Source: a virus | Virus record (IMG/VR): IMGVR_UViG_3300025009_000089 | Location: 627-64,626 of that record | Direction: 5' to 3' (one strand) | Length of the DNA: 64,000 bases | In this document: positions 48,840 to 63,663 of the stretch, piece after piece | Layout: each line of letters starts with the position of its first letter | Numbering within the stretch: the stretch's first letter is position 1 | The notes under the pieces: model-generated | What the model was told of the DNA's origin: nothing | What the model saw: the letters and a program-made list of their open reading frames with translations, nothing else | Databases searched by the model: none | Program-made: the position numbers and the translations under genes

Positions 48840-49660
48840 ACCAGTATCTCAGTCTGCCCGGAGAAATTCGTCCAAAACTCTACTGGAACAGGAGTAAATG
48901 AGTACTCCCTGATACTTCCTGGACTAGTTCCTACAAGAAGAAACAACTTCTCAACCTCTTCACTTGCAAACACACCTGTAATATGATCAATTCCTGTAGC
49001 AAAAGAATCTGTTGTTGTGAGGGTAGAAAAATCCCACGGAGTTGAAAGGTCGAACCTGGAAAGCACTCCAGGCACAGCGTCTACTGTATATATTCGCTTA
49101 CCTGTTGGAGATGCGAATATTTGTGGAGTGAACGCTCCAGTAAAGAAATACTCAGCATCAACCTTTATTGCTGAACTTATGTTGAATGGAGATGATAAGT
49201 TATATTTTGTTAAATAGAGCCCCCCACCTGTTGTATTGACAGCAAGAATCAACTGCTGCCCTGTAGGCTCGAACATCCCGGAATGAATCCAGTATGATCC
49301 CGTTCCTGCTGCATCTGTAAAATTTTTCACACCTACATATGATGCAGTAGATAATCCCCCAGCGAGAGAATACTGATAGACATTAAATACTCCATAGCTT
49401 TGACTTTGACAAATATACAAAGCACTATCATTCGGCGCAATGAAACAGGAATACAGATATGTTGTGGGAGAAAGGGTATCTCCGGTAAATACTGCTGTGC
49501 TTATATCCCATGGAACTGAGAGACTTAGTTCTCGTACACGATTGGGGACAACTTCTGTTGAGACAAAGTAAGCCCTTGTTCCAGAAGAATTAAAGCATAG
49601 GCTTAAGCCGTTCAGACTACCTATGCTCTTGCTTGAAAGATATGTATATATATCAGCCAT
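48836..49660 (-). CDS. Beta-propeller-like repeat virion protein
   Basis: Repeated LSVPWDISTA / LSSPFNISSA / LSTPWDFST units; C-terminal FWTNF. Confidence 0.6.
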   Translation of the reverse strand: MADIYTYLSSKSIGSLNGLSLCFNSSGTRAYFVSTEVVPNRVRELSLSVPWDISTAVFTGDTLSPTTYLYSCFIAPNDSALYICQSQSYGVFNVYQYSLAGGLSTASYVGVKNFTDAAGTGSYWIHSGMFEPTGQQLILAVNTTGGGLYLTKYNLSSPFNISSAIKVDAEYFFTGAFTPQIFASPTGKRIYTVDAVPGVLSRFDLSTPWDFSTLTTTDSFATGIDHITGVFASEEVEKLFLLVGTSPGSIREYSFTPVPVEFWTNFSGQTEILV

Positions 49661-50127
49661 TATGCCGCCGGAAACCCGATGTTATACGCATTGATAGGCT
49701 GTACATTGCCGATGGTCATGTAGGAGTTGCCAATTATCAAGTCTTTACTGACCGTTCCGACAGTTCCTTGTACCCGTTTTTCTGTGGTGCTTAAAACTCC
49801 TGTATCAGAACTCAACACGCCCCGATAGAACGAAGCATATCCGGATGCGACATTCGTTCCGGTCCATGTTTCAGCAGCAGCTTTAGCAACAACCCCAGAA
49901 GCAGGAGCGTCGAACGTCCCGCCTGTACCACCACCATTTACAGAAATAGTACAAAGCAAAGTTGCCGAACCAATCGCTGCATCAGCCGTGGCTGGGATAA
50001 GTGCATCTGCTGCTGCCTGACTTGTTGCAGAACCATAAATCTTAATAAGAAACCCGCTCATGCCAGTGGCAAAGTCATCGCTACCGAGCATATGATTACG
50101 TAAACCTGTGCTTACTTTAAGAGCCAT
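49660..50127 (-). CDS. Small virion structural protein (similar to 63289-63663)
   Basis: RN.ML...IKIY...P.TADAA....LL.TI...A.ASFYR pattern. Confidence 0.55.
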   Translation of the reverse strand: MALKVSTGLRNHMLGSDDFATGMSGFLIKIYGSATSQAAADALIPATADAAIGSATLLCTISVNGGGTGGTFDAPASGVVAKAAAETWTGTNVASGYASFYRGVLSSDTGVLSTTEKRVQGTVGTVSKDLIIGNSYMTIGNVQPINAYNIGFPAA

Positions 50128-50135
50128 TATTCACC

Positions 50136-50531
50136 TCAATCCAGTGCGGCGATGATTTCGCCAATTTCAAAAGTTAATGGACTAGCATTGCTTATCGCTC
50201 GTGAAGTTGCAAGAGCACCATACATAATACAATTTCCTGCTGTAGCCGCAGTCCAAATGCTTACATGAGTTACCGTGTATGTCCCTGCTGCGACTGCTGG
50301 TGTAAATACAACCTGCGTTGTGCTGGCAGACGATCCGGTTGTTGATGTTCCCATAGTAACAGCCTTGCGGATATAGTCAGCGTCGGTGCCAACGATCATC
50401 TCAGCAGTTGCACCAGTTTCAGTTGGGTCAGCTGTGTGAATTGCAACAAACCAAGCCGTAGGTCGAGTTACCGAGTCAGTATTAAATGTCCAGTTAATAA
50501 GGAGATTTTCGCCGTAGTTAGTAAATGACAT
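50136..50531 (-). CDS. Small virion structural protein
   Basis: FTNY.EN.L...YVA.HTADP.E.G..E.....Y.R.AV...VTHV.IW.A.T.GN pattern. Confidence 0.6.
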   Translation of the reverse strand: MSFTNYGENLLINWTFNTDSVTRPTAWFVAIHTADPTETGATAEMIVGTDADYIRKAVTMGTSTTGSSASTTQVVFTPAVAAGTYTVTHVSIWTAATAGNCIMYGALATSRAISNASPLTFEIGEIIAALD

Positions 50532-50540
50532 AATTTCTCC

Positions 50541-51047
50541 TTATGCCGAAACGAGTGCGAACCCGACCGGAACTCGTAATGCACCAAGATTGGCCATAGT
50601 AAACGGAGATGCAAACAAAGCTGCCGAAACTAGCAAGCCGGTATTTGATCCTCTAGTTATTCCAGTCGTAATAAATGCCCCTCGTATCGTCGCTGCCCCT
50701 GTAAATGCAAACTCATTTGGTGATGCCGATGTAGTAATTGATCCAGCTACTGGTGATGGTAAAGTCAATGTCAACCGATTTGTACCAGTTGTAGTGTATC
50801 CAGTATTCTCTCCACAAGCATCCATGAACGTAGTCATTGTATCCGTTGCCAGTGGAGTATAATTATTTTCAAATAGTGAAAGATAGTAAGTCGAATATTG
50901 ACTTCCCCCTCTCAATACTGCATTAAGCATGTATGTAATCATATCTCCAGGCATGAGATTATGTACCTCTTGCTGAGAAATGATCTGCCCATCCTCGCCT
51001 ACATGCGTCGGAGTGTAAACGAACCCGACTTTATAATCATTATTCAT
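50541..51047 (-). CDS. Small virion structural protein
   Basis: HNL.P...ITY.LN......YLSLF...Y.P...D...A.F.FTG..TIRGAF pattern. Confidence 0.55.
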   Translation of the reverse strand: MNNDYKVGFVYTPTHVGEDGQIISQQEVHNLMPGDMITYMLNAVLRGGSQYSTYYLSLFENNYTPLATDTMTTFMDACGENTGYTTTGTNRLTLTLPSPVAGSITTSASPNEFAFTGAATIRGAFITTGITRGSNTGLLVSAALFASPFTMANLGALRVPVGFALVSA

Positions 51048-52279
51048 TATGCCTCTCTTCGAATTTGTTCAGCAGTTATCCAACTACTTGCTGCCATAGA
51101 TGACATTGATGCATCTTTAAGACTTGTTATAGCCTGTTTCATACCATTTTCTTCCCGAATCAACATAGCTCCTTTATCACTGTAATCTGGTGCTACTTGC
51201 TCCTCCTGTATGTTCTTTATTTCTCCTCCATTTCCTGCCATTATTAAACCTCGCGTTGAAAACCAATAAACATTTCCATCTGATCGTTTTTGCCCAGTAC
51301 CAAGTGACGCACCATAATCAAGTTTAGTTAATTGCTGAAAGTTCTCTGGACCACTTCCAGCAAAGAAATAAGTCTTATCTGCTACAATCCAAACACCATC
51401 ATCAACAGGTTCAACTACAGTTATATTCTCGCTGAATTGAAAAACACTATTACTTAATTGAGAAACAAGATCAGTTGAATATGCTTCAGTCACATACAGC
51501 AAATTATCTTTTGCAATCAAAAGTCTACCATTATGTTCTCGAATAATTTGCCCCGCTGGTGGCTTTGTAATAAATAAAGTTTCAAGAACCTTTCCACCAT
51601 CATAAGCAAGTGTTACAGAATAACTCAGTGTGCCAATCACAACATCTCCACACTGATAAAAGACTTGACCATTCGCAGTAGTCATGTACAAACGAATTCC
51701 GATAACTTGACTATCACTTGAAGATGGAAGACTTGTAAAAACAACACTACTATTATCTATAACTGAAATTGATGTAATATCACTTGATCCAGACTCATTA
51801 TCAAGTGCATCATAAAAAGTCAGGCAACATAAATAAACTCCTGCTCCAAATATTCCAGAAGAGCTATAAACTACTGGAGCAGTCGGATTACTCATACCCC
51901 AATTTTGAGCCACACCATTCAGAATCTTTTTTCCTCTCAAACCATCACTAAAAAACAATTCATTATTATGCTCATAATAAGTAAAGGTATCACCAAGTAC
52001 TCCACCTAAAATATCAATCTTTGTCCAATCAGTATTGACTTTTTTAAGTGTTGTACCTTCAACAATAAAGTGTCCTTGAGAACAAGCAAAGCCATATTTT
52101 ATATCAAACCCACTGCATTTCTTCGTACTACCGTTCCTCATTTTGATCTTACCTGCATTAGTAAAATCAACACTTACAGCATTTCTAACCATCGTACTTG
52201 AATCTTCTGAATTAACTGGTAACGCATGATCTTCAGCGCGATTATTCATGCCTTTAAAAGGCCCAAGTGAAAGCTTCAT
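51047..52279 (-). CDS. Putative tail tube/nozzle (stabiliser) protein
   Basis: GPF.GMNN, RNAV.VD....G...R.G; follows the adaptor gene; beta-rich. Confidence 0.55.
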   Translation of the reverse strand: MKLSLGPFKGMNNRAEDHALPVNSEDSSTMVRNAVSVDFTNAGKIKMRNGSTKKCSGFDIKYGFACSQGHFIVEGTTLKKVNTDWTKIDILGGVLGDTFTYYEHNNELFFSDGLRGKKILNGVAQNWGMSNPTAPVVYSSSGIFGAGVYLCCLTFYDALDNESGSSDITSISVIDNSSVVFTSLPSSSDSQVIGIRLYMTTANGQVFYQCGDVVIGTLSYSVTLAYDGGKVLETLFITKPPAGQIIREHNGRLLIAKDNLLYVTEAYSTDLVSQLSNSVFQFSENITVVEPVDDGVWIVADKTYFFAGSGPENFQQLTKLDYGASLGTGQKRSDGNVYWFSTRGLIMAGNGGEIKNIQEEQVAPDYSDKGAMLIREENGMKQAITSLKDASMSSMAASSWITAEQIRREA

Positions 52280-52290: not shown

Positions 52291-52959
52291 TTATCTAAGC
52301 ATGAATCCACGAGTATATGATGGAATAGTTAGTTCAAGAGTTCGCATGGCTTCAAGGAAAAATCTTTTATATTTAAGTGTATTTTTCATTTCGTCATCTT
52401 TATCATCCTCAAGCCGCTCATATGCTTTCCATGCACCAAAATTAACTAAGAGAGCTTCTTGTAAATGTTCTGGAATTCCATCTGGAGTATCATCATCATT
52501 AATCATATTAACTGGTTTTCGATAATAATGTAATGTTACAGTTTCACTACTTGTAGGAATACCTTGATAATATAATTTTCCTCCATGTTCAATAGATTCA
52601 GAAATTCTTCCTGATTTATTCAGCAATGGATAAGTTTCTGCAAATTCAATAAATGAATGTGCTATATCAATCTCACTTCCAGTAGATGATGATACAAACT
52701 GCAAGTCTCTATGAAAATTAGTTGGCATATTTACATAAGCAGCACTAGTTGAAGTTGTCACAGTATCTATTGTAAACAATTCAGGCAATGGTGGAGTAAG
52801 CGAATTTGGTAATGGATCCTCAATTCCATCCAACAACGAAGGCATTCCGCCTGCAATTTCATAAACACCCTGATTAATAAAATCGCCTAAATGATCAAAT
52901 ATTGCAGGATTATCAATAAGAATATTTACTTTATTTATTAAATATTCAAAGGTAGCCAT
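52291..52959 (-). CDS. Head-tail adaptor protein
   Basis: Helical N-terminus, .V.L.YYRKP..M....D.PD.IPEH.Q.ALLV..AW.AY. Confidence 0.65.
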   Translation of the reverse strand: MATFEYLINKVNILIDNPAIFDHLGDFINQGVYEIAGGMPSLLDGIEDPLPNSLTPPLPELFTIDTVTTSTSAAYVNMPTNFHRDLQFVSSSTGSEIDIAHSFIEFAETYPLLNKSGRISESIEHGGKLYYQGIPTSSETVTLHYYRKPVNMINDDDTPDGIPEHLQEALLVNFGAWKAYERLEDDKDDEMKNTLKYKRFFLEAMRTLELTIPSYTRGFMLR

Positions 52960-52967: not shown

Positions 52968-53207
52968 TTATAAATCATCTGGAGTTATTGGTGTAGTTAT
53001 AAAATTCTCTTCTGGTTCAGGCCTATGCACAGGAACACTTTGCTTCTCACCTAACGGCTTCGGATCAGTATAATGTGGATGCTTTTCTTCCCAACATGTA
53101 TCAGCACAAACAAACAACTTATCCCAAGTCATTCTGCATTCAGATGCATATCTTTGAAAACCGCATTGATCACAGATTACTAAATAATCACCAGGTTTAT
53201 ATGACAT
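52968..53207 (-). CDS. Small Zn-binding protein
   Basis: CDQCG...VC..CWEEKHP. Confidence 0.65.
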   Translation of the reverse strand: MSYKPGDYLVICDQCGFQRYASECRMTWDKLFVCADTCWEEKHPHYTDPKPLGEKQSVPVHRPEPEENFITTPITPDDL

Positions 53208-53210: not shown

Positions 53211-53612
53211 TTATCCTTCACGATAAAAACGATGGCCTTTAATTTCAACAATGAATTTCATACCTTTGATCCAGTATGGTGGTTGGTGGTTCGGCATACC
53301 CAATAAAGCATAATAATGTGTTGCACCATAAAGTGTATCACCAGCCAACCATTCATTGAATCCTGCCTGAGCATTTTCCAATACCTTTGCTGAGGTGACA
53401 ACATTTCTAATCCAAACAGATGGATGATCTAGACCTAAATTAAAACAACTAAATTGCTTTCGTGATAGCACAACATTCGATACTGGCCAGTTATTTTTCT
53501 TCGCTCGATTGAGAATAACCTTGACAACTGCTTTCTGTCCAGCAACTGACTCCCCTCTAGCCTCATGATAGATTGTCAAAGTCAGCCAAAACAAGGCTTG
53601 TGTTATATCCAT
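53211..53612 (-). CDS. Cell wall hydrolase (SleB/Hydrolase_2 family)
   Basis: TIYHEARGE...GQ.AV..VILNR, QFSC, ATHYY, P.W, I.GHRFY; start at ATG 53612 (TAATG overlap). Confidence 0.88.
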   Translation of the reverse strand: MDITQALFWLTLTIYHEARGESVAGQKAVVKVILNRAKKNNWPVSNVVLSRKQFSCFNLGLDHPSVWIRNVVTSAKVLENAQAGFNEWLAGDTLYGATHYYALLGMPNHQPPYWIKGMKFIVEIKGHRFYREG

Positions 53613-54337
53613 TAACTCACCGCCTTTCGCGCAAAAGCACACTCACCACCGCGCTTCATAAATACCTCAGCAAAATCATCAAGGTCCATTACCCAGTATC
53701 CATTACGCAAAAGGTTCCAATATGGCCATGAGTTTGGCCCACCAATAATGTTTTGATGGAGATTAATAAATGTTCCCGCAGTACAGTGTCCGCCAACTAC
53801 TTCACCACCGGGAGTACTCAGTCCATCCACTTCCCGAGGATACATCATACCCTCAGTCCATTCAAGCCCAAGTATTGCAGAACCATAATAATCAATACCT
53901 CTGATTACTTCATCAATAGTTCGTGCTCGACAATAAGATTCAATCAAACCTTCTTGCTTGGCAGTTTGCATTACCGCTGCAAGAGACGTTCCATAACTAA
54001 TTGGTTTCGATCCTGGTCTTTCTGAGCCTGGCCACTGATCATTATCCTGGCACCTGAAATAAAACTCAAGAGCCCATTCGTCACCAAGAGTTCTTATTCC
54101 AGGCTCATGTTCCATAAAAGCAGTGAAGCCAAATCCACCACATGCACTCCACTTAGCCTGATTAAGCAAAGGTTCCTTGAACTTCTTTACTCGATATTTG
54201 CTGATCAACTCTCGATATCGCAAATCAATACCATCATCAATCGGAGGAACTGCAAGAAGATTTGGAGCAGTAGGATCAGCTTGAAAGATTAAGCCACAAC
54301 GAAGATCTTGAATTTCACTACCATCTTTAAGTATCAT
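53612..54337 (-). CDS. Papain-like (C1A-type) cysteine peptidase
   Basis: NQ...SACGGF (Gln/Cys), GGHC (His), NSW (Asn). Confidence 0.7.
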   Translation of the reverse strand: MILKDGSEIQDLRCGLIFQADPTAPNLLAVPPIDDGIDLRYRELISKYRVKKFKEPLLNQAKWSACGGFGFTAFMEHEPGIRTLGDEWALEFYFRCQDNDQWPGSERPGSKPISYGTSLAAVMQTAKQEGLIESYCRARTIDEVIRGIDYYGSAILGLEWTEGMMYPREVDGLSTPGGEVVGGHCTAGTFINLHQNIIGGPNSWPYWNLLRNGYWVMDLDDFAEVFMKRGGECAFARKAVS

Positions 54338-54339
54338 AA

Positions 54340-54831
54340 TTAATTCACAGTCTGATTTATTTGTTGAATTGCTTTAAGAATTGTTTCTAAGTTCTTCTCT
54401 TGAGCTTCCTTCACTTCTTTAACTTCACTTTCAAGTTTCCCAAACCTTTCAGCACCTGCTGCCATTTTTTCTTCAAACCGTTCATGACATGTTTCTCTAG
54501 CATCAGCACAAGTTGGCCTAGTGATAAATCGTGGTTCTCCATCAGACATTTCAAACATTTTAAGAACAGACTTAATCGCATTTTCAATCTCTGATAGCCT
54601 ACGATCATAATCAAGAATTCTAATTCGTGTTTGAGTTGTTTCTGCAAGAACTAAATCATTTGCAGTAAACTTAATATCATGAGCGTCAAGCCGAGTATGT
54701 GCTCGTTCTATCTCACCCTTTGTCTTTTGAATCTTTCCACCAAGCCCAACAAGAGAAAGTGCCCAGCCAAGAATAACTCCAAATGCTCCTGCTGCACCAG
54801 CAAAAAAAGTAAATCCTCCATTCTCCGGCAT
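54340..54831 (-). CDS. Membrane-anchored coiled-coil protein (holin/XhlA-like candidate)
   Basis: N-terminal hydrophobic helix followed by coiled coils; next to the SleB gene. Confidence 0.5.
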   Translation of the reverse strand: MPENGGFTFFAGAAGAFGVILGWALSLVGLGGKIQKTKGEIERAHTRLDAHDIKFTANDLVLAETTQTRIRILDYDRRLSEIENAIKSVLKMFEMSDGEPRFITRPTCADARETCHERFEEKMAAGAERFGKLESEVKEVKEAQEKNLETILKAIQQINQTVN

Positions 54832-55380
54832 TTAATATTCCTTCTCGTCGTCTTTATAAAGCGCATCTTCATTATCAGGTAACCGAGTGTCAAGAATCTT
54901 CGCCCAATGATTATTCCTCGCAGTAGCCAGTCTTCTTAATCGATCTTTTACTGTAGGATTCTCCAATGGATTAACATCTTCTTTACGGTTCTTAGTAAAC
55001 CATGAAAAGAACAAGATTCCCATTGTACTTACTGCAGTCAAATATATTCCAGTTACTGAAGTCAACATCTTAATCTTAGGCCATAAATCAAGATCAGAAG
55101 CAAGAACCAACTCTATACAATTCAGAAAAAACCTACCATTCGCACCCATGAACGCACTTAGATTCTTAGCTGAACAAGACCATTCAACATCATGACAAAG
55201 ACCAGCTGGATTGAGATAAACCTTGCCTATTTTATCAGGCACTATTGCATCTCCCCAACCTTGGCCAGCTCCACAGAATGTTGGCCATGCCTCGGGAGGC
55301 AAATCATGAGGCCATAGAGGTTCAAGAAAATCAGGAATAGTAAGATCAGCCCCCCAATAAGAAATCTTAACAAAATTCAT
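54832..55380 (-). CDS. Phospholipase A2-like / DUF1353-like protein with a C-terminal hydrophobic segment
   Basis: FCGAGQG...VPD...LCHD motif order; start at ATG 55380 behind GGAGG. Confidence 0.4.
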   Translation of the reverse strand: MNFVKISYWGADLTIPDFLEPLWPHDLPPEAWPTFCGAGQGWGDAIVPDKIGKVYLNPAGLCHDVEWSCSAKNLSAFMGANGRFFLNCIELVLASDLDLWPKIKMLTSVTGIYLTAVSTMGILFFSWFTKNRKEDVNPLENPTVKDRLRRLATARNNHWAKILDTRLPDNEDALYKDDEKEY

Positions 55381-55835
55381 TTCTTCCTCCAAACCCAAGG
55401 CTGGACTGGAGCAGGACCAGACCACAATCCTACTCGATTACCAGCAGAAATACCTTGAAGCTTTTCCCATGCCTGACAAAATGACTTCTTACAGTATTGC
55501 GGATAAACCCAAGCATATCCAGCAAGTAAAAGTTGTTCTTGCACACATTGTGTTCCGAGCATGACCACAGCTACCGACCGGTCGTATGTACGTCCCCCAG
55601 TTGGCAACACATCGACAACCTTACCCTTGATCATAACATCTACAAAATCCTTAGCCGCAAGGCCGAAGGCTTGAGACTTCTCTGGAGAATCAATGCCATA
55701 GAGCCTGATCGTTGTCAGTCCAATCTCATCAACGACTTTAATCGTATCACCATCAATGACTCTAACTACTGTGGCTGGCTTGGCTTGAGCAATTGAAGCA
55801 ACAAGTAAGAAGAATAAGATTATAATTTGATACAT
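55377..55835 (-). CDS. Thermonuclease (SNase family) with signal peptide
   Basis: VIDGDT, IRLYGIDSPE, YDR..A, LL.AGYAW, GLWS.P.P..PW.WR; N-terminal MYQIIILFFLLVASIAQA. Confidence 0.88.
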   Translation of the reverse strand: MYQIIILFFLLVASIAQAKPATVVRVIDGDTIKVVDEIGLTTIRLYGIDSPEKSQAFGLAAKDFVDVMIKGKVVDVLPTGGRTYDRSVAVVMLGTQCVQEQLLLAGYAWVYPQYCKKSFCQAWEKLQGISAGNRVGLWSGPAPVQPWVWRKK

Positions 55836-56008
55836 AATTTTACACCTGTTGGTTGGTAGCGAAACCGCTCGCAACTTACGCCGGCTCTGCCATGATCATC
55901 GAATGAGAAACATGGTCCTGGCTCATTACAATACCGATCCTTGACAAAATGCAAACCTTCATCATTTTTCTTGAACAACTGCAAACTGTCTTCCGAAATC
56001 ACCCGCAT
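55820..56008 (-). CDS. Hypothetical protein (62 aa)
   Basis: CAGGAG SD before ATG 56008; C-terminal part of track ORF 55820-56164. Confidence 0.45.
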   Translation of the reverse strand: MRVISEDSLQLFKKNDEGLHFVKDRYCNEPGPCFSFDDHGRAGVSCERFRYQPTGVKLCIKL

Positions 56009-56036
56009 AACTTTCTCCTGAAAGTTGAAGTAAGGT

Positions 56037-56120
56037 TCAATCACAGTCTTCGTTTGGATAATTACATATTGGACATCTTGGGCCGGTGTAGTTATGGCCA
56101 CAACGCGTACAAGTGTGCAT
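56037..56120 (-). CDS. 27-aa Zn-ribbon microprotein
   Basis: Hand translation MHTCTRCGHNYTGPRCPICYYPNEDCD; exactly fills the gap between two ORFs. Confidence 0.4.
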   Translation of the reverse strand: MHTCTRCGHNYTGPRCPICNYPNEDCD

Positions 56121-56124
56121 CTCG

Positions 56125-56907
56125 TCACCAATAAATCGTTACTTTTTGGCTGTTGTCCTTCCAAGGACCTTGCAAATAGACCCCTCCATGGCTCGTCCCG
56201 GTGTCACTGTCGCCGTCACCATTCGGCCCAATCCCGGGCTTGAATACCGTGCCGTACATAGGCGCTTTGGAGTTTCTGCTGCAAGAAGGCTGGTCTCTGC
56301 AATTCTTTGATGTGTTACTGACCACGAACTCTTTGCCGGAGGAGAACACCAGCTTTATGGGCCCGGGCCCAAACTCCGGACCTTTCTTGTTGATGCGCCA
56401 GGCCCATCGGCCGTTCCTCGACCCATAGCTATCATACTCTGCTTTGTGTGTATATGATCCTGCCGGAGTCCCAGGTTCAGTCGGTGTAGAAGCCGTTCCG
56501 CTCTTGGCAGTGTAGGTCACGCCGTCAGCCATCTTGATCACGAACACCAACGGCCGAGCATACTGGTCGCCGGACTTGGTCAGCAGGAAGACCGGTGCGC
56601 CTTTGTACGGAGTCCCGAGCCGAGCGACTTCGCCGTTGACACTGACGTAGGTAATCGAGCCAGCCTGCAGGGTCCTGAACAGGATGCCTGCGGAGCCATT
56701 GCCTTGGTCGGTCGAGCGCTCGAAGGTGATTGGATGTGGGAATGTCTTGTTGCCGGACGGAGGTGTGACAGGCGGTGTGACAGGCACTCCTCCCGGGAAA
56801 TACTGAGCACAGAGAGCGTTGCATTCGTTAAGGGACTGCGGAACAGTTACTGCCCCTGCCGGCACCGCCCAGAGCAGGGCTAGGACCAGGATAAGGCGGA
56901 ACATCAA
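56125..56907 (-). CDS. Signal-peptide-bearing hypothetical protein
   Basis: MFRLILVLALLWAVPAGA, Pro/Thr linkers, two beta-rich domains. Confidence 0.7.
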   Translation of the reverse strand: MMFRLILVLALLWAVPAGAVTVPQSLNECNALCAQYFPGGVPVTPPVTPPSGNKTFPHPITFERSTDQGNGSAGILFRTLQAGSITYVSVNGEVARLGTPYKGAPVFLLTKSGDQYARPLVFVIKMADGVTYTAKSGTASTPTEPGTPAGSYTHKAEYDSYGSRNGRWAWRINKKGPEFGPGPIKLVFSSGKEFVVSNTSKNCRDQPSCSRNSKAPMYGTVFKPGIGPNGDGDSDTGTSHGGVYLQGPWKDNSQKVTIYW

Positions 56908-57278
56908 TCTACCTCCTCGATCTGGCCTTCAGGTTCAACCGGTTCATCAGGGAAGGTGGGAGCCGCAGGTACGGGCTCGATCGGTTTGACCTCTTCTTTG
57001 ATCTGGGTCGTGGTCGTCGAGGTCGTGGTCTTCTTGGACATATCCGGTACAAGTTTGCCAACTGCATCCCTGATCCCACCAAGAGAGGCGAGTCCACCGT
57101 CTGCTGCTGCCGACCCACTGGCGTCCTGAGTAGGAGTCGTAGCCGTCGTCAAGCCTTGTGCATCGGTCTTCATCGTCCCGCTGCCGGTCTGACTGAACGT
57201 AACCTCAGTCGGACTGTAATTCACTGAGCAACTTGCCAATAAGCCAACAGCCATTAATGCTCCCAAAAGTCTCTTCAT
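56904..57278 (-). CDS. Putative lipoprotein
   Basis: MKRLLGALMAVGLLASC lipobox; Thr/Pro/Glu-rich tail; start at ATG 57278. Confidence 0.65.
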   Translation of the reverse strand: MKRLLGALMAVGLLASCSVNYSPTEVTFSQTGSGTMKTDAQGLTTATTPTQDASGSAAADGGLASLGGIRDAVGKLVPDMSKKTTTSTTTTQIKEEVKPIEPVPAAPTFPDEPVEPEGQIEEVD

Positions 57279-57331
57279 TTCTTCCCCCAAAAAGTTAAAT
57301 TTTAATTTCAGAAACGCCCGCTCGTCGCCGG

Positions 57332-59602
57332 TCATTGGGATATCGTCACACTTCCAGTCCCGCCAAGCCCCGCGCCTTGCGCGCCGCTGAGGGATGCCGC
57401 GCCTGCTGGCGGATCGGGCGGAACTTCTCCCTCAAGCACAGCCGCAAGAGAATTGCGGACCCCGTAAAATGTCGCCTCGTCGGTCGTCAGGTTCCAGTAT
57501 GCATCATCAACATCTGCGTCGGTGAATGCGCCGTCTATGATTGCCATCATCGCCGCTTTCCCATCTGCAACAGAAACCATGTGTGCATATTCCCAATCCT
57601 CGATAGCATCCCTGATGTGTTTCATCCTGATGCTCTCAATTGGGATATCGTTCGTCCCGCCAATGATGGGAGTGTCTGCCGCCAGAGTTGTCCTCCCTGT
57701 CGCGCTTGCCACACCAGGATATATTAGATGCCCATCCCCGTTCGAGCCAAAAACGAAAATATCGTCGTAGGGATTTCCCGCTGCTGCCACATTTCCAGGG
57801 CCATAGATATTATCATAGGTCGTTTGCCAGTAGATCGTCCCAGTCAATTCATACTTCGCCCAGATGAATCCGGGAAATCTATTGAACAGCGGATTTGCAT
57901 CGGCTGACCAGTCTATTTGACCGCCGGACCACTCTGGACCAGTGAGCCAGCAACCATTATTATCACAGGCCAGATACCCCCACATCTCGTCATTCGGATA
58001 TCCTGGATAGGTGTCGCGTGATACCTTCGTACCGCCGACAGTACAGGTTTTATCCCATCCAGGGCAAACAAAGGTGTATGAGTTTGCACTATAAAAACCA
58101 TGATTTGCGAAGTCCTCAAGCCCTATTCGCATTTTTGAGTTAGTATATACCTGCTTAAAGGTTCCTGCTCCCCCAGTGTTGACGGCGTTAACATCCTCCG
58201 CTTGGTCTATAACAGCATCACACTTATTCCAAGTCGATCCTCGCCAAGTGGTCGTCTGGTCGCACCTTGGTTCGTCAAGTGTGCCGAAAACCAAAGTGTT
58301 CCAGGGGTCCCATCCTTCTGCCTCAAATTTGTCGTAGACAATCTGAACGTACTGCCGCGCTGCTGTCTCTTTATCAGCAGCATCAATATCCGTTCTGGTT
58401 GCAGAGTCGGCAGGCCACTCGGAAGGCACGCGGCGGAATGCTTGTTTTGCCCCTGCGTATGGCCCTGAGGTAATGGCGGTGCCGTCAAACACGCCTTCAA
58501 CAATCGTCTGCCAGGGGTCCCAGTTGACCACAGTCAACACTTTATTGACAGCATCCCACGGCATGTATGACGCCCCGACCATTGATTTGCCGCCGCTGGG
58601 TATCGCTCCCATCTTGTGATACAGAAAAGCCGTCATGTAAGTTTGAGCGAGAGCCACGGCCTCTGCGGTTCCGTTAAATGCCGGGTCCTGGTCCATGCCG
58701 TGGCCGTATGTGGCATAGGATTGCTCAAAAACGAACGAAGAGTGAAAGGATGACGTGGAGGGTAAAACAAAATCCCACACTTCGACCGTCACCGGCAGGA
58801 CAATGTTCGATTTGCCATCTGCCAATATTGTCGCTGTGCCGGTATAGGCTCCTGCCGGTGTCGTTGTCGTTGTCCCGAGATCAACCCACACCCCCTGGAC
58901 TTTGCCGGACGTCACGGAGAAGGGGAAGGTGTTTCGTGTTTCTCCGAAGTATCTATCGACTTTTGGCAGCAGTGCATCTGGGTACATCCCGGTTGGATAG
59001 TCTACCCTTGACTTGCGGTTCGGTGCGTCGATCTCTGAATAGTAGGTTGCAGGGTTTGATGGGGCATAAACCGACAGATATGTCCCGTCGTATTTCCACT
59101 TGTAAGCAGCATCCAGCACGGTCTCGTTATTGCCATCATGCCAATTCGACTGCCCAGTGCCCCCGTAATAAAACCCCACCTCTTGATCGTGGTATGCGCT
59201 TGGAGTGCCGCTCCATACATGCTCAATAGCTCCGATGTTCTTCCGCCAGACCCCGCTCCCCATGTCCGTCCAGTCGCCAACCACTCCTTTTACGTCTACT
59301 GATTTTGTCCAGTGATAGTGCTGCTTGTACAGGTAGATATCATCAATCGTATCGCTGCCCTTGGTGAGATTTGACACGACGACATCGACATTTGTCAGGG
59401 ATTCGCCATCAGCGTAAATTATCACCTGGAATGATTCTATTTCATTCTTTGCCAGCCTGATCGTCAGCGATTGCGCCCCACTCGTCCCATCCTCGCCGTC
59501 CTGCCGATATTTGGTCAGGGAGTTGTCGAGCCAAGCATTCATTGCAGCAAATGACTGGCACGGTGTCAGGATGAGAAATAGTAAAAACAAAACCCTCATC
59601 AT
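57332..59602 (-). CDS. Glycoside hydrolase family 123-like / DUF4091 protein with signal peptide
   Basis: AKNE.ESFQV, YPDALLP, G.Y.G...I, VEVWDF.LP, TLDEP, NGDG.LIYPG, SIR...IRD.IEDWEY. Confidence 0.65.
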   Translation of the reverse strand: MMRVLFLLFLILTPCQSFAAMNAWLDNSLTKYRQDGEDGTSGAQSLTIRLAKNEIESFQVIIYADGESLTNVDVVVSNLTKGSDTIDDIYLYKQHYHWTKSVDVKGVVGDWTDMGSGVWRKNIGAIEHVWSGTPSAYHDQEVGFYYGGTGQSNWHDGNNETVLDAAYKWKYDGTYLSVYAPSNPATYYSEIDAPNRKSRVDYPTGMYPDALLPKVDRYFGETRNTFPFSVTSGKVQGVWVDLGTTTTTPAGAYTGTATILADGKSNIVLPVTVEVWDFVLPSTSSFHSSFVFEQSYATYGHGMDQDPAFNGTAEAVALAQTYMTAFLYHKMGAIPSGGKSMVGASYMPWDAVNKVLTVVNWDPWQTIVEGVFDGTAITSGPYAGAKQAFRRVPSEWPADSATRTDIDAADKETAARQYVQIVYDKFEAEGWDPWNTLVFGTLDEPRCDQTTTWRGSTWNKCDAVIDQAEDVNAVNTGGAGTFKQVYTNSKMRIGLEDFANHGFYSANSYTFVCPGWDKTCTVGGTKVSRDTYPGYPNDEMWGYLACDNNGCWLTGPEWSGGQIDWSADANPLFNRFPGFIWAKYELTGTIYWQTTYDNIYGPGNVAAAGNPYDDIFVFGSNGDGHLIYPGVASATGRTTLAADTPIIGGTNDIPIESIRMKHIRDAIEDWEYAHMVSVADGKAAMMAIIDGAFTDADVDDAYWNLTTDEATFYGVRNSLAAVLEGEVPPDPPAGAASLSGAQGAGLGGTGSVTISQ

Positions 59603-60612
59603 AATGCGACCCCCAGCAGATCGTCAGCGCGAGCGTCATAATCTGTGTTATCTCGGTCGAAGATAAGGCCTATGTAGTCTCCCGCAGAATAGGTTGAGTC
59701 TGTTACAGATATTCTCTCAACCCCGCCGACATAGACTTTTATCGTGGTCCCTGACACGCTCAATTTGATCGTATACGTACCAGAGGCGTATGATCCTATA
59801 TATGTGTCAATCGGGGTTACGGTGGTTCCAGAAAAAGACGACAAGAGGACTTTTCCTGTCTCTCCGAAATACGCTATGTATCCGGTCTTTGGCGTGCCGG
59901 TTGAGACTCTCGCCAGAACTCCAGCGCTGTCTGTTGCGCCGTTATATGTGACTGACGCGCTTACCTCTTGGTTCGCAGTCCCCAGTGTTGACTCATGATA
60001 TACTAGATTCTTTGCCCACGTTCCAGACCCTCCAGCATTTCCACCAGATACCGATATGCCTCCACCGATTGCGGTGTAGTTCGCTGAGGTATCAGAGGAA
60101 AAGTCATCAGATACCCCGACAGATGCAGGGTCGAGGCTGTCGGTCAATGCGAATGTAAGCCACTTACCCGCGGTATCACTGTATATAGCCCCAGTAGTCC
60201 CATTGCGGGCAATGCCGCTTACGTGGGGCGAATCCTCATAGGTTGGAAAAGTATCGAAAGCGAATGATGCGCCGCCCGCAGCGATCAAATCGACCACCCG
60301 ATCAGCACTCAGCAATTTGTCTACGTCCCCATTCCCGGCAGTGTCGTCAATCAGCCCAGCAACCGAGGAGGTCCACTCATATGTGCCTGCGCCGGTCGCT
60401 TGAATGATTTGGTTGGTTGCTGTGGGGAGAGATGTGAGGCCTACAAATGCAGAGAAGGGCGCATTCTTTACCTTCCACGCGTCTGCCGAATCGCTAATTA
60501 GAACCTTGTCGGCACCTACAGGGGTAGCCTTGGTCGGATAACTTGATGCTGCTGCACCAAAGACAGTTGATGGAAGCATTAAAACTGCCATAATAATAAA
60601 TAATTTTTTCAT
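59599..60612 (-). CDS. Signal-peptide-bearing protein with fibre-like motif and C-terminal ConA-like beta-sandwich
   Basis: MKKLFIIMAVLMLPSTVFG; KATPVGADKVLISDS; GVLAR...GY...TIKL.V.G..IKVYV.G..RI.VTDS.Y..G.IGL. Confidence 0.55.
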   Translation of the reverse strand: MKKLFIIMAVLMLPSTVFGAAASSYPTKATPVGADKVLISDSADAWKVKNAPFSAFVGLTSLPTATNQIIQATGAGTYEWTSSVAGLIDDTAGNGDVDKLLSADRVVDLIAAGGASFAFDTFPTYEDSPHVSGIARNGTTGAIYSDTAGKWLTFALTDSLDPASVGVSDDFSSDTSANYTAIGGGISVSGGNAGGSGTWAKNLVYHESTLGTANQEVSASVTYNGATDSAGVLARVSTGTPKTGYIAYFGETGKVLLSSFSGTTVTPIDTYIGSYASGTYTIKLSVSGTTIKVYVGGVERISVTDSTYSAGDYIGLIFDRDNTDYDARADDLLGVAL

Positions 60613-60908
60613 CTCTCCCGTACCCTCATAGTTATATCATGCTCCCATTTATGCCCTGCTGATGTAACACATCGAAAAGTCAACTTGTAAGGACTCATAG
60701 ATGCAGAACCAGCTCGAACCTTTAAAGACACTGCGTTTGATGTTTGCACCACTGTCGTTTGATCAGTAATCGTACTGGAGACATCTGTTCCTGCTTTATC
60801 AACCGCAGTTACTGTTGAAGAAACAATCGATTCACCACTTGCAAGATTGAGAGCAAACGAAACCTGGACTGTAAACTCTTCATAGGACTGTTTTATCACT
60901 TCATTCAT
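60609..60908 (-). CDS. Small Ig-like fibre adaptor-type protein
   Basis: KQ.YEE......L..GE.I.SS...G....YKLT...VTS.G...E pattern. Confidence 0.5.
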   Translation of the reverse strand: MNEVIKQSYEEFTVQVSFALNLASGESIVSSTVTAVDKAGTDVSSTITDQTTVVQTSNAVSLKVRAGSASMSPYKLTFRCVTSAGHKWEHDITMRVRER

Positions 60909-60909
60909 A

Positions 60910-63288
60910 TCATTCCGCCTCTAAGTGTGCGAATGAGGTTCTTGGTGCGATGGCTAGTATCTTAGTATCTGTTCGTTCCCTGAAGAACTCGATCTGCCGC
61001 TGCTGCATTACATATTTTTTGATTACACCAGCGGTAGTCGTATAAACAATGCCAGCACACCCTGCCTGATCATCCCCAACTTCACCAGTATCCAACTGCC
61101 CCATAACTATATGAAGAGCAGTAATGTGAACAATATCCTCACCAACCTCTTGGGGTGTGAATGTACCGATGACCGTAACGCTACCTGATAATGCTGCCGT
61201 ATCTGGTGATTCCTGTGCTTCGACCACTCCGAATACAGTCACAGTCCCGACGAACGCTACAGAATCATTTCCTATTTCAGAGACGATTAATGATCCAGTT
61301 ACCGGAGCATAACCTACGGTTCCTGAGAAGACGACCGAATCCCCCCCGCTCTCATTGACATCAAGTGATCCGACGACGAGCACAGTCCCTGAGAACGCGG
61401 GAATGTCTACGCCCTGCTCGATTGCTGCTGTAGTGCCTGAAATGTAAACATCACCTGTGAATGAGCCGGTGTCTGATTGATCAGTGCTTGCGAGACTGCC
61501 GGTTACGTAGACAATGCCCTCGCCATCCGCAGTGTCACTACCAGTCTCCTGAACTACAAGCGAGCCTGAGATTGCAGACCCCCACGACACAACACCTTGC
61601 CATGTTGCAACATCAGAACCTGTCTCGGTGGCTGCCAGAGTGCCAATAATGAATGTGTTACCTGATGCAGCAAGAGTATCACTTCCTGATTCCGCTGCAG
61701 TGAGAGTTCCGTTAATTAGAACATCTCCAGTTAATGCGAAGGTGTCTGTACCTGCCTCGGTTACACCGACGGTTCCAGCTACCAGAATATCCCCTGATAT
61801 TGCACCAGTGTCTGTACCTGTTTCCTGAGTAGCTAAGGCTCCTGAGATTATTACATCCCACGATACCACGCCTTGAATGATTGAAGTGTCCTGCCCTGAT
61901 TCAGTTACTTCAAGCACTCCAGTGACAAAAGCATCACCAGCAACTGATGCTGTATCCACTCCAACTTCAGAAGCAGTGAGAATGCCTGAGATTATGACAT
62001 TACCAGTCAATGCCGCTGTGTCTGCACCAATTTCCTGTCCTGCGAGCGTGCCGAATGTCGTAATGCCACCAGTCGCTGTGAGAGTATCAGTCCCAGTTTC
62101 CTGCGCCGATATTTCCACTGCAATCGGAATATTACCAGCTATCGCGGATATGTCTGTACCAGTCTCTACGCCTGATAGTATCCCGTTAACAAGAACATCT
62201 CCACTAACTGCCAGCGTGTCCTCGCCACTCTCCTGCGTTGCTACGGTGCCGGTGACAACAACATTGCCAGTCAGTGCTGCCGTGTCGTTGCCGATTTCCG
62301 TGCTTGCCAACGCCCCGGAGATAATTACATCACCAGCAAGTGAAGTGGTATCGTCTCCTGAATCTGTTGTGGCAATAGTGCCAGAGATAAGAACATTCCC
62401 AGTAAGGGCTACTGAATCTTCCCCAGTCTCTACCCCGGCGAGTGTCCCGCTGACTCCAGCATCACTTACTGATCCGCTCAAAGCCATTGCGTCATCTCCG
62501 ACCTCGGAGACAGAAAGAGGACCAATATTAAGAACCCATCCATCATAAATGGGTAAGCCATTCTCGTCGGTGACTATCGCGCCGGTTTCGTCACGAAGGA
62601 TACCATCAGTGAAAAAGGCGAAAAATGAGTCACTACCTATCTCACTGACTGCAAGCGTTCCCTCAACGCCTGCCTCGCCGCCTGACACCGTTCCCGAAAG
62701 ACTGGCAGTGTCAGCACTTGGCCCTTCGGAGACATCAATCATCCCCATGATGCAAGCTTCGCAGGCTATGGTCGCAGTATCTTCCCCAGTCTCTTGTACT
62801 GCGAACGTCCCTGTGATTGGACTCACATAATAGACTGTCAGATAAACATGATCGACAGCACGGGAATAGTTGGTTGTGTTTGATGGTTTGAGCAGAACAC
62901 CGAATGTCGAAGCATTGACATCGCCCGGGGAAAGCGTGTTGCCAAGAAGGTTCGCTTCTCCACCGACCGTGAACGTCTGGTCAGTGTTAGCAATAGTTGC
63001 AGAGAAAGCCGAGGCCGTCCCGGTCCCTGCCGATCCATCCTTGGTGAGCTGAACCGTCAGTTCCCGCCGTGCCGCTGAGTTGCCAGCTGCCTGGTACTCG
63101 GTGACAATCTCAATGCCAATGATTGTCGCTTCAGTAGGAATGGAGAACCCGAACCCAGTCGCCGCCATGATAGCGGATGTAGCCGTAGCTGTGGCTCGTT
63201 GATCATCAGAACCATAGACATATGACGGGTTGCTCCAGCCAGCAACAATACTGGCTGAAGCTGTAGGATTACGGGTTGAGGACGACAT
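60910..63288 (-). CDS. Repeat-rich fibre-like virion protein (792 aa)
   Basis: About 155-aa N-terminal globular domain, then many tandem G.L...E.G.DT...G.V units. Confidence 0.7.
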   Translation of the reverse strand: MSSSTRNPTASASIVAGWSNPSYVYGSDDQRATATATSAIMAATGFGFSIPTEATIIGIEIVTEYQAAGNSAARRELTVQLTKDGSAGTGTASAFSATIANTDQTFTVGGEANLLGNTLSPGDVNASTFGVLLKPSNTTNYSRAVDHVYLTVYYVSPITGTFAVQETGEDTATIACEACIMGMIDVSEGPSADTASLSGTVSGGEAGVEGTLAVSEIGSDSFFAFFTDGILRDETGAIVTDENGLPIYDGWVLNIGPLSVSEVGDDAMALSGSVSDAGVSGTLAGVETGEDSVALTGNVLISGTIATTDSGDDTTSLAGDVIISGALASTEIGNDTAALTGNVVVTGTVATQESGEDTLAVSGDVLVNGILSGVETGTDISAIAGNIPIAVEISAQETGTDTLTATGGITTFGTLAGQEIGADTAALTGNVIISGILTASEVGVDTASVAGDAFVTGVLEVTESGQDTSIIQGVVSWDVIISGALATQETGTDTGAISGDILVAGTVGVTEAGTDTFALTGDVLINGTLTAAESGSDTLAASGNTFIIGTLAATETGSDVATWQGVVSWGSAISGSLVVQETGSDTADGEGIVYVTGSLASTDQSDTGSFTGDVYISGTTAAIEQGVDIPAFSGTVLVVGSLDVNESGGDSVVFSGTVGYAPVTGSLIVSEIGNDSVAFVGTVTVFGVVEAQESPDTAALSGSVTVIGTFTPQEVGEDIVHITALHIVMGQLDTGEVGDDQAGCAGIVYTTTAGVIKKYVMQQRQIEFFRERTDTKILAIAPRTSFAHLEAE

Positions 63289-63663
63289 TTACGCGTGAGT
63301 AATAGTAGCAGCGGTAATGGTAACGGTCTGACCCGCCGTAATACTAACAGAGTCTAGAATGATATCAGAAGCCGATAAGCCGACCGTCAGGCCAGTGATG
63401 ATATCCGTGTTGTTGCTATCCCTGATCCTCGCCGCTGCCGCCGTGCCAGTGTTATCCGCTGACGTATCGGAGTGGGGCATGGTGAAGGTGAGAACTGCAC
63501 CTGTTGCCGAGCCACAAGGATCAGTCAAGGGGATGGTGGCCAGGACAGAGGCCATGCCGGTCGTGCCGATCTCAATATAACCAGCCGCAGAACCTGCGTC
63601 AATGGCAGTAGCTACTGCGGTCATACGTGCCTGTTTTACTGTTGTAGTATATGTAACTGCCAT
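63289..63663 (-). CDS. Small virion structural protein
   Basis: Y....K.ARM.AV...ID.G...G.I.I...LATI.L..P.G...G..LT...D..A..TGTA..ARI; resembles ORF 49660. Confidence 0.6.
   Translation of the reverse strand: MAVTYTTTVKQARMTAVATAIDAGSAAGYIEIGTTGMASVLATIPLTDPCGSATGAVLTFTMPHSDTSADNTGTAAAARIRDSNNTDIITGLTVGLSASDIILDSVSITAGQTVTITAATITHA

What the first reader, a model, noticed from the sequence alone, without database searches (positions are those of the whole stretch)
55377..60612. Run of signal-peptide-bearing proteins inside the virion morphogenesis operon
Five nearly consecutive late genes begin with Sec- or lipoprotein-type signals: 59599 MKKLFIIMAVLMLPSTVFG, 57332 MRVLFLLFLILTPCQSFA, 56904 lipobox LASC, 56125 MFRLILVLALLWAVPAGA and 55377 SNase. 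ORF 59599 also carries a tail-fibre-type motif (KATPVGADKVLISDS) and a lectin-like domain, and is coupled to the fibre adaptor. Tailed-phage virions assemble in the cytoplasm, so exported fibre-like, glycan-binding and glycan-cleaving proteins are paradoxical. Inference: either a phage-encoded cell-surface remodelling or receptor-masking system, or appendages added to virions in the periplasm or at lysis. I know no described system of this form.
Basis: partly seen in the sequence, partly recalled or inferred. Interest (0 to 1): 0.68.

Follow-up and report, generated by a model that had tools for sequence, protein, structure and literature searches.

The report
Phage fibre-like proteins carrying export signals
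An uncultured short-tailed phage puts classical bacterial export signals on a sugar-binding fibre-like protein, a sugar-cutting enzyme, two envelope proteins and a nuclease that sit between its tail-fibre and lysis genes, so part of its host-surface gear should fold outside the cytoplasm where phage particles are built, which no paper I found explains.

Summary
Observation confirmed. Five of the six signal-like N-termini among 76 ORFs lie in one run of six genes (55377-60612, minus strand; chance about 1e-4).

The signals recur in relatives. Nearly all 25 close homologues of the fibre-like protein A carry a Sec or lipoprotein signal, as do 89 of 120 homologues of protein D. Orthologues of A swap one signal type for the other.

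The run is not one system:
- **A + B:** A is a fibre-module N-part plus a CBM66/galectin-like lectin domain. B is a GH123-like glycosidase with a conserved C-terminal tail. They form a swappable glycan-targeting pair.
- **C + D (+E):** a lipoprotein, a conserved two-domain envelope protein and a small Cys-rich protein. They travel with holin and endolysin genes. D's C-domain has lipoprotein paralogues in Desulfobulbaceae chromosomes.
- **An exported SNase.**

The phage backbone separately encodes signal-less fibres of the Pseudomonas phage A1002 type.

Export is well supported (about 0.85), but the proteins' fate is open. They may join virions at lysis (0.4). The precedent is Cellulophaga phage phi10:1 gp091-094, which are signal-bearing yet recorded as detected in virions by MS/MS. 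Or they may act on the infected cell's envelope (0.35).

This scan has flagged the same pattern on other DNA at least seven times. I found no account of it in the papers searched.

The parts
60609..60908 (-). gp77-like small beta protein (fibre-tail adaptor/collar family), no signal; its stop overlaps the start of A
   Evidence: Pfam PF23148 Gp77, 31.1 bits against a cut-off of 27. 85% identical copy in L002.
59599..60612 (-). A: Sec signal (cleavage about 19|20), fibre-module N-part (res 20-165) and lectin-like jelly-roll C-domain (res 200-337)
57332..59602 (-). B: Sec signal, then a GH123-like glycoside hydrolase starting right after the signal, then a roughly 65-aa C-terminal tail whose last ~40 residues are shared with unrelated enzymes in the same slot of relatives
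   Evidence: Pfam GH123_N. PDB 8k2f E 9.5e-16, collinear from residue 16. Tail shared with L002/L004 proteins, 65% over 40 aa.
56904..57335 (-). C: lipoprotein (lipobox LASC; probable start at 57278), Thr/Pro-rich, conserved acidic C-end
   Evidence: Fused to D's C-domain in other phages.
56125..56907 (-). D: Sec signal, CxxxC helix, Pro linker, Ig-like beta-sandwich and a highly conserved C-domain (res 150-260)
   Evidence: 177 homologues. Alignment A1. Model pLDDT 85. Fold searches. Host lipoprotein paralogues.
55820..56008 (-). E: 62-aa four-Cys protein without a signal, conserved next to D
55377..55874 (-). Exported staphylococcal-nuclease-type nuclease (signal from the ATG at 55835 or the TTG at 55874)
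   Evidence: Pfam SNase 57 bits. PHROG 452. NCBIfam partial hits. Signal-bearing copies in L002 and L021.
53211..55425 (-). Context, the lysis-type genes directly downstream: a 197-aa protein with a C-terminal TM segment, a 163-aa protein with an N-terminal TM segment plus coiled coil, a 241-aa peptidase-like protein, and a SleB/Hydrolase_2 endolysin
60910..63663 (-). Context, signal-less genes upstream in the same high-GC block: a 792-aa protein with at least 21 copies of a 22-residue repeat, and a 124-aa protein
   Evidence: C-terminus conserved in L002.

Best explanation
The five N-terminal segments are working export signals: four cut by signal peptidase I and one of lipoprotein type. The proteins leave the cytoplasm of a diderm host, possibly a member of the Desulfobulbaceae.

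The run has three parts.
1. A (fibre-like stalk plus lectin domain) and B (GH123-like glycosidase) are the phage's exchangeable gear for binding and cutting a host surface polysaccharide. I commit to this reading: they fold in the periplasm and are loaded onto particles, or released with them, only once the holin has opened the inner membrane. That makes them auxiliary appendages added late to a particle that already carries cytoplasmically assembled A1002-type fibres.
2. C (lipoprotein), D and E are envelope proteins of the lysis cassette.
3. The nuclease is an exported accessory enzyme.

Shown here:
- the signals are present and conserved;
- the domain identities;
- the operon coupling;
- the modular swapping between relatives.

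Inferred, not shown:
- actual export and cleavage;
- the glycan target;
- late loading onto virions;
- the host.
For: Export:
- 5 of 6 signal-like ORFs in the window are clustered here.
- Nearly all of the 25 close homologues of A carry Sec or lipoprotein signals.
- 66 of 120 remote homologues of A's N-part carry signals, 15 of them with lipoboxes.
- 89 of 120 D homologues carry signals.
- Every enzyme in the B slot of L002, L004, L005, L007, L008, L029 and L031 carries a signal.
- Window A has a Sec signal while its 69%-identical L002 orthologue has a lipobox in front of the same mature N-terminus.
- Signal-bearing A relatives have even cysteine counts more often than signal-less ones: 56:26 against 18:27, Fisher p 0.0026.

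Fibre or receptor-binding nature:
- A's N-part modules recur, often repeated, in long signal-less fibre-like proteins.
- A's C-domain has the jelly-roll fold seen at the tips of many phage fibres and minor tail proteins.
- A and B keep their termini but swap their bodies between relatives.
- The slot upstream of the adaptor gene holds ordinary signal-less fibres in sister phages L030, L036 and L037.
- A is translationally coupled to a gp77-family fibre-tail adaptor gene.

Precedent for the virion reading:
- Cellulophaga phage phi10:1 gp091-094 all begin with textbook signals. The GenBank record annotates them as structural by MS/MS; they include a pectate lyase and a tail fibre. TM proteins and an endolysin follow them.
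Against: - Tailed-phage particles assemble in the cytoplasm, and no route is known for loading exported proteins onto them.
- About a quarter of the signal-bearing A-type proteins are lipoproteins. They would be membrane-anchored and hard to place on a particle.
- B is a complete enzyme from the first mature residue, with no N-terminal virion anchor.
- The backbone already encodes homologues of the A1002 nozzle-base and fibre II, so A and B are dispensable in principle. Sister phages with 87-92% identical adaptors lack large signal-bearing proteins (L030, L037).
- The ~100-aa genes that precede fibres in relatives show no detectable homology to the gp77-like protein, so that synteny argument is positional only.
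- MS/MS detection in phi10:1 neither shows how the proteins got onto the particle nor excludes co-purifying material. That phage also infects a different phylum.
Confidence: 0.4

Rival explanations
1. Envelope-acting cargo, never part of the particle. A and B are exported in order to bind and cut the host's own polysaccharide in the periplasm or envelope of the infected cell. They would either destroy or mask the receptor against superinfection and progeny loss on debris, or clear a capsule or matrix at exit. C, D and the nuclease belong to the same exit and exclusion toolkit.
For: - Both Sec and lipoprotein signals sit on orthologues, so envelope location rather than solubility looks like the selected trait.
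- The genes always abut holin/endolysin genes.
- B looks like a captured bacterial secreted glycosidase that begins right after its signal.
- The backbone has its own fibres.
- The cassette is dispensable among close relatives.
- Known analogues, from my own knowledge: T5 Llp and the Cor lipoproteins are encoded beside receptor-binding genes (PMC9586334 listed), and streptococcal prophages encode secreted DNases next to their lysis genes.
Against: - It does not explain why A keeps fibre-shaft modules shared with true fibres, or why it sits coupled to a fibre-tail adaptor gene.
- In a diderm, Sec export reaches only the periplasm, whereas receptors are on the surface.
- The genes lie in the late operon with no promoter of their own above chance.
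- The phi10:1 record places such proteins in virions.
Confidence: 0.35
2. The hydrophobic N-termini are not used for export in infected cells. They might serve as transient membrane tethers or assembly handles, or the Sec pathway might be shut off late in infection. The proteins would then assemble on virions in the cytoplasm like ordinary fibres.
For: This is the simplest way to reconcile fibre-like proteins with cytoplasmic assembly. The phi10:1 proteins are found in virions.
Against: - The N-termini have a canonical n-h-c layout with small residues at -3 and -1 and true lipoboxes, kept over wide divergence.
- A positive n-region predicts that the body of the protein goes out, not in.
- The cysteine-parity bias fits oxidative folding.
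Confidence: 0.08
3. Recently acquired passenger genes: bacterial secreted enzymes and lipoproteins carried in a recombination hotspot with no phage-specific role.
For: - The block at 56.0-63.5 kb has 49-59% GC against about 38% for the backbone.
- It is a mosaic with 68-85% nucleotide identity to a higher-GC phage.
- D's C-domain has chromosomal paralogues in hosts.
Against: - The same architecture recurs in several distinct phage backbones (L002, L004, L005, L007, L008, L029, L031).
- The genes are tightly packed and translationally coupled.
- D has 177 homologues, all from metagenomic sources (ena/jgi/Logan), many on contigs of phage-genome size.
Confidence: 0.05

Closest known systems
Cellulophaga phage phi10:1 gp091-gp095 (NC_021802; record notes cite MS/MS proteomics)
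   Same: A run of consecutive signal-bearing proteins at the distal end of the tail module, including pectate lyases and a 'tail fiber protein', followed by TM proteins and an endolysin.
   Different: It is a siphovirus of a Bacteroidota host, with signals of the Bacteroidetes Gln+1 type. I looked for no sequence similarity to A-D and found none in passing. The record gives no explanation of the signals. Here the backbone has additional signal-less fibres.
Virion tail fibres and tailspike depolymerases of podophages (T7 gp17, P22 gp9; GP4/A1002 chain-like fibres)
   Same: Position beside the lysis genes, conserved docking ends with swappable glycan-binding or glycan-cutting bodies, and a lectin-type distal domain.
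   Different: Known fibres and spikes have no export signal and assemble in the cytoplasm. B's conserved end is C-terminal, not N-terminal.
Phage receptor-masking lipoproteins (T5 Llp, Cor of phi80/N15/T1-like phages)
   Same: Phage-encoded exported lipoproteins encoded next to receptor-binding genes that act on the infected cell's envelope (PMC9586334 listed; the rest from my own knowledge).
   Different: Those are small single-domain proteins that bind an outer-membrane protein and are made early. No homology was found. Here the proteins are large, fibre-like or enzymatic, and lie in the late operon.
Signal-peptide genes of Porphyromonas gingivalis phages (Matrishin et al. 2023, PMC10367356)
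   Same: Phage genes with host-adapted Sec signals, read as modifiers of the host surface.
   Different: Those are unknown-function genes of temperate phages. That paper names no tail fibres or depolymerases.
Spanins, and Sec- or SAR-exported endolysins
   Same: C (lipoprotein), D and the TM/coiled-coil protein sit in the lysis cassette. D occurs in exported and in signal-less forms, as endolysins do.
   Different: No homology to known spanins. C is separated from the TM/coiled-coil gene by four genes. D's activity is unknown.

Membership tests
Sec (signal peptidase I) signal peptides: A, B, D, SNase | Positive n-region, a 10-15-residue hydrophobic core, and small residues at -3 and -1 within about 15-30 residues of the start | tested here: met
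   Heuristic scan and the sequences. The feature is conserved in homologues. SignalP was not available.
Sec (signal peptidase I) signal peptides: A, B, D, SNase | Actual translocation and cleavage | not testable with these tools
   Needs PhoA/Bla fusions or N-terminal sequencing.
Bacterial lipoproteins (signal peptidase II): C and the L002 orthologue of A | Lipobox [LVI][ASTVI][GAS]C at the end of the hydrophobic core | tested here: met
   LASC in C. LTAC in L002 A'. 15 lipobox forms among 66 signal-bearing relatives.
GH123-type beta-N-acetylgalactosaminidases (B) | Sequence match to the family's N-terminal domain and to a solved member over the whole enzyme | tested here: met
   PF19543 at 25.8 bits against a cut-off of 22. 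8k2f E 9.5e-16 in three collinear segments.
GH123-type beta-N-acetylgalactosaminidases (B) | Catalytic Asp-Glu pair in the barrel domain | tested here: inconclusive
   The barrel region (res ~294-537) was not aligned by phmmer. A D-E pair exists in the sequence, but its equivalence was not established.
Staphylococcal nuclease (SNase, PF00565) | Profile match above the gathering score | tested here: met
   57.1 bits against a cut-off of 21. Catalytic residues were not inspected.
GP4 gp77 fibre-tail adaptor (PF23148) | Profile match above the gathering score | tested here: met
   31.1 bits against a cut-off of 27. No direct phmmer hit in the PDB.
ConA-like / CBM66-type lectin domain (A, res 200-337) | Jelly-roll fold | tested here: met
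   Model block pLDDT about 60-97 over res 200-337. Foldseek 4b1m E 4e-7, TM 0.64. Sugar-binding residues were not tested.
Virion tail fibre | Physical presence on particles, docked to a tail protein | not testable with these tools
   Only position, module sharing and the phi10:1 precedent bear on this.
Two-component spanin (C as o-spanin) | Small outer-membrane lipoprotein gene adjacent to, overlapping or embedded in an i-spanin gene (N-terminal TM plus periplasmic coiled coil) | tested here: not met
   C has a lipobox, but four genes separate it from the TM/coiled-coil gene at 54340-54831. No spanin family hit.

The most novel reading that the evidence does not exclude
A two-compartment assembly line for tail appendages. 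The particle leaves the cytoplasm carrying a repeat-bearing 'rope': the 792-aa protein with at least 21 copies of a 22-residue repeat, or the 50-53-aa stubs with short tandem peptide repeats seen upstream of signal-bearing fibres in L004 and L005. Exported lectins and enzymes, folded and disulfide-bonded in the periplasm, would then hook onto the rope at lysis through their conserved terminal strands (B's C-tail, A's mature N-end). This would parallel the way fibre dimers dock on the rope protein of GP4/A1002-type phages.
Probability: 0.15. Interest if true: 0.85.

Novelty: new variant of a known kind. Interest (0 to 1): 0.62.

Why it matters
Textbook tailed-phage assembly is wholly cytoplasmic. 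If receptor-binding and depolymerase proteins routinely mature in the periplasm, there would be a late, extracytoplasmic step in virion completion. If instead they act there without ever joining the particle, there would be a new class of large phage-encoded envelope effectors.

Either outcome changes three things:
- how receptor-binding proteins are predicted from genomes;
- how depolymerases should be expressed for use, with disulfides, lipidation and the signal removed;
- how host range is inferred for uncultured phages.

This window adds a case outside the Bacteroidota. It also shows orthologues switching between Sec and lipoprotein signals, and a backbone whose other fibres match a solved structure. 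Together these make the question experimentally approachable.

Tried and rejected
- **Complex prediction:** gp77-like protein against A's mature N-part gave 'no answer' (score 0.00). It is evidence neither for nor against binding.
- **Cultured relatives:** megablast and tblastn of the region, B, A's N-part and the gp77-like protein against cultured phages gave nothing useful.
- **B in viral contigs:** no relative found.
- **B-type C-tail:** a search with the tail alone found only 3 proteins, because the query is too short for that database.
- **D's fold:** domain 1 is a generic Ig/CBM-like sandwich (Z about 6). The C-domain has no PDB match, only an unnamed AFDB 'Lipoprotein' cluster. The Atlas search gave nothing.
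- **PLA2 idea:** I suspected that the 197-aa protein downstream (conserved C-H-D motif) is a phospholipase A2. No Pfam or NCBIfam support, so I dropped it.
- **gp77 homology of neighbours:** I asked whether the ~100-aa genes preceding fibres in relatives are gp77 homologues. Pfam gave nothing and hhalign gave probability 0.3%.
- **Desulfobulbaceae genomes:** the portal and A's N-part were not found in the 151 genomes searched.
- **Transcription signals:** promoter and terminator scans were at chance level.
- **tRNAs:** none in the window.
- **Sample identifiers:** a literature search for them found nothing relevant.
- **Holmfeldt 2013:** the paper is not held under the id I tried.

Full report
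**What the window is.** It covers bases 627-64626 of a 68,440-bp IMG/VR virus record that CheckV rates complete. It is a podophage. It has an SU10-type adaptor (52291-52959) and a gp77-family fibre-tail adaptor (60609-60908). The 410-aa protein at 51047-52279 matches a 398-aa 'Structural protein' chain of PDB entry 26FB (E 3.7e-30). By length and entry id, as given in PMC13730344, I take that chain to be the nozzle-base protein of Pseudomonas phage A1002. The 168-aa protein at 50541-51047 matches a 171-aa chain of entries 26LA/44NX (E 5.9e-16), which on the same grounds I take to be A1002 fibre II. The backbone therefore encodes signal-less tail fibres of a structurally solved type.

**The observation.** The genes on the minus strand between 60612 and 55377 are:
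- A (337 aa);
- B (756 aa);
- C (143 aa);
- D (260 aa);
- E (62 aa, no signal);
- a staphylococcal-nuclease homologue.

A, B, D and the nuclease start with an n-h-c segment that ends in small residues at -3 and -1. C has the lipobox LASC. A simple scan of 76 non-overlapping ORFs found six signal-like N-termini, five of them here. I estimate the chance of such clustering at about 1e-4. The gp77-like gene, A, B, C and D overlap each neighbour by 4 nt. No promoter or terminator signal exceeds chance. They are therefore one late transcription and translation unit together with the fibre-adaptor gene.

**Are the signals real?**
- The closest viral relative (L002) has the same gene order. Its orthologue of A is 69% identical over the N-part and carries a lipoprotein signal (LTAC) in front of the same mature N-terminus. 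Its protein in the B slot is a different, unidentified protein with its own Sec signal and the same C-terminal tail. Its copies of C, D and the nuclease keep their signals.
- Of the 25 close homologues of A, all but two begin with a Sec or lipoprotein signal. Those two contain only the lectin part.
- An exhaustive search with A's mature N-part (residues 20-165) found 135 proteins. Of the 120 new ones, 66 have signals, 15 with lipoboxes. The other 54 are mostly long signal-less fibre-like proteins in which the same ~45-residue units recur up to 23 times.
- D has 177 homologues, and 89 of the 120 listed carry signals.
- Signal-bearing A relatives have an even number of cysteines more often than signal-less ones: 56:26 against 18:27, p 0.0026. 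That fits disulfide formation outside the cytoplasm.

I put the probability that these proteins are truly exported at about 0.85. No trained predictor or experiment was available.

**What the proteins are.**
- **A.** The model shows a signal helix, a poorly ordered fibre-like N-part and a confident jelly-roll at residues 200-337. The jelly-roll matches CBM66 and galectins (E 4e-7, TM 0.64). It also matches the distal domains of many phage tail fibres and minor tail proteins.
- **B.** It matches the GH123 N-domain. It aligns collinearly with the oligosaccharide-releasing beta-N-acetylgalactosaminidase 8k2f from residue 16 onward (E 9.5e-16). The enzyme therefore starts directly after the signal, and only a C-terminal extension of about 65 residues is extra. 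The last ~40 residues of that tail are 65% identical to the ends of the unrelated 394/395-aa proteins of L002 and L004. A similar end closes a Pel9A-like beta-helix protein in L005.
- **D.** The model is confident (pLDDT 85). It shows a CxxxC helix, a proline linker, a generic Ig/CBM-like sandwich and a C-domain with about 24 invariant residues. That C-domain has no solved relative.
- **Variants of D.** In some phages D lacks the signal and starts with a CPxC knuckle. In others only its C-domain is present, fused behind a C-type lipoprotein. C and D therefore work together.
- **D in bacterial genomes.** The C-domain also occurs as one to three tandem chromosomal lipoprotein genes at a conserved locus in Desulfobulbaceae genomes, including the isolate Desulfoprunum benzoelyticum. 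It also occurs as a C::D fusion next to a holin-like gene at what I read, from the neighbouring ORFs, as the end of a prophage in a Desulfobulbaceae MAG.

**Host.** These links make Desulfobulbaceae the best host guess for this phage group. The 38% GC backbone fits such hosts poorly, however, and neither the portal nor A's N-part was found in the 151 family genomes searched. I rate the host assignment for this particular phage at about 0.45.

**Context and variability.** The block at 56.0-63.5 kb has 49-59% GC against about 38% for the rest of the genome. It shares 68-85% nucleotide identity, in patches, with the higher-GC phage L002. Phages whose adaptor is 87-92% identical carry very different cassettes upstream of the adaptor gene:

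| Locus | Cassette upstream of the adaptor gene |
|---|---|
| L029 | three large signal-bearing proteins |
| L035 (= L005) | two to three large signal-bearing proteins |
| L031/L032 | two |
| L030 | a signal-less 676-aa fibre-like protein, plus only small exported proteins and lipoproteins |
| L037 | a signal-less 765-aa fibre-like protein, plus only lipoproteins |
| L036 (57% identical adaptor) | only signal-less fibres, and no lysis genes |

This slot is therefore the phage's exchangeable fibre-and-lysis cassette. In L004, L005 and L029 a signal-less stub of 50-140 aa precedes the signal-bearing fibre-like gene. The L035 stub shares its first 19 residues with the 765-aa fibre of L037. The ~100-aa genes that precede fibres in these relatives show no detectable homology to the gp77-like protein, so that parallel is positional only.

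**Precedent.** The scan's earlier notes pointed to Cellulophaga phage phi10:1, and I checked the record. gp091-gp095 all begin with textbook signals followed by Gln. gp091-gp094 are annotated as structural 'based on experimental MS/MS proteomics analysis'. gp093 and gp095 are pectate lyases and gp094 is a tail fibre protein. TM proteins and an endolysin follow. In at least one cultured phage, then, signal-bearing fibre and depolymerase proteins are reported in virions. The nearest paper I could read is Matrishin et al. 2023. It reports Sec signals on Porphyromonas phage genes and reads them as host-surface modifiers, and it does not mention tail fibres. Other literature searches found nothing closer.

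**Interpretation.** Two readings remain close.

Virion-appendage reading, 0.4. It explains:
- the fibre modules in A;
- the lectin tip;
- the conserved ends with swapped bodies;
- the slot shared with true fibres;
- the coupling to a fibre-tail adaptor gene;
- the phi10:1 proteomics.

It is strained by the lipoprotein variants, by B's lack of an N-terminal anchor, and by the absence of any known loading route.

Envelope-acting reading, 0.35. It explains:
- the lipoproteins;
- the linkage to the lysis genes;
- the dispensability of the cassette.

It does not explain the fibre features. The two readings are not exclusive: exported proteins could act on the envelope first and bind particles on release.

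C, D, E and the nuclease are best read as lysis-associated envelope proteins and an accessory enzyme, not as fibre parts.

**Standing.** The same pattern has been flagged on other DNA by this scan at least seven times, so this window is not the first sighting. It adds four things:
- a probable case outside the Bacteroidota;
- interchange of Sec and lipoprotein signals on orthologues;
- the link between the D family and host lipoproteins;
- a backbone with fibres of a solved type.

Noticed in passing
window 49660-52279 (-): The 410-aa and 168-aa proteins match PDB chains that I take, by length and entry id (PMC13730344), to be Pseudomonas phage A1002 nozzle-base gp42 (26FB) and fibre II gp41 (26LA/44NX). 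The neighbouring 131- and 155-aa genes may be further chain-fibre subunits. This suggests a split-nozzle, chain-like-fibre tail in an uncultured 38%-GC phage.
   Followed up: partly
window 60910-63288 (-): A 792-aa signal-less protein has at least 21 copies of a 22-residue repeat (E-x-G-x-D spacing) between residues ~160 and 760. Its C-terminus is conserved in L002. It could be a 'rope' with many docking sites, as in GP4/A1002 fibres. No DNA-level tandem repeat was detected.
   Followed up: partly
L015 10297-10794; L013 3554-5170; L011 9779-10801; L017 5128-6259; G001:C24:36576-37413: Desulfobulbaceae chromosomes carry one to three tandem small lipoprotein genes with the phage D C-domain. The locus appears conserved across the genomes; I did not run its flanking genes against any family library. 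Function unknown.
   Followed up: partly
L005 9852-10004; L004 9843-10004; L029 832-1254: Small signal-less ORFs (50, 53 and 140 aa) sit directly upstream of signal-bearing fibre-like genes. The 50- and 53-aa ones end in short tandem peptide repeats. The 50-aa one shares its first 19 residues with a 765-aa signal-less fibre in L037.
   Followed up: partly
window 54832-55425 (-) and L002 6296-6865, L008 11027-11422: A conserved protein with a C-H-D-V motif (with a C-terminal TM segment in the window and L002 copies) lies between the nuclease and the TM/coiled-coil gene. No family match. The phospholipase-A2 idea was not supported.
   Followed up: partly
window 56000-63500: GC jumps from about 38% to 49-59% across the fibre and exported-protein block. 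This points to a mosaic origin from higher-GC phages such as L002 and L004.
   Followed up: yes
L007 7906-8748: A tyrosine integrase gene sits inside the equivalent cassette of a related 55-kb contig, between the signal-bearing proteins and the lipoprotein/D genes. This suggests that some relatives are temperate.
   Followed up: no
window 52968-53207 (-): A 79-aa four-Cys (zinc-ribbon-like) protein just upstream of the adaptor gene is kept in every relative examined, even where the whole cassette differs.
   Followed up: no
window 18852-19112 (+): The only other signal-like N-terminus in the window, on an 86-aa ORF in the early/middle region.
   Followed up: no
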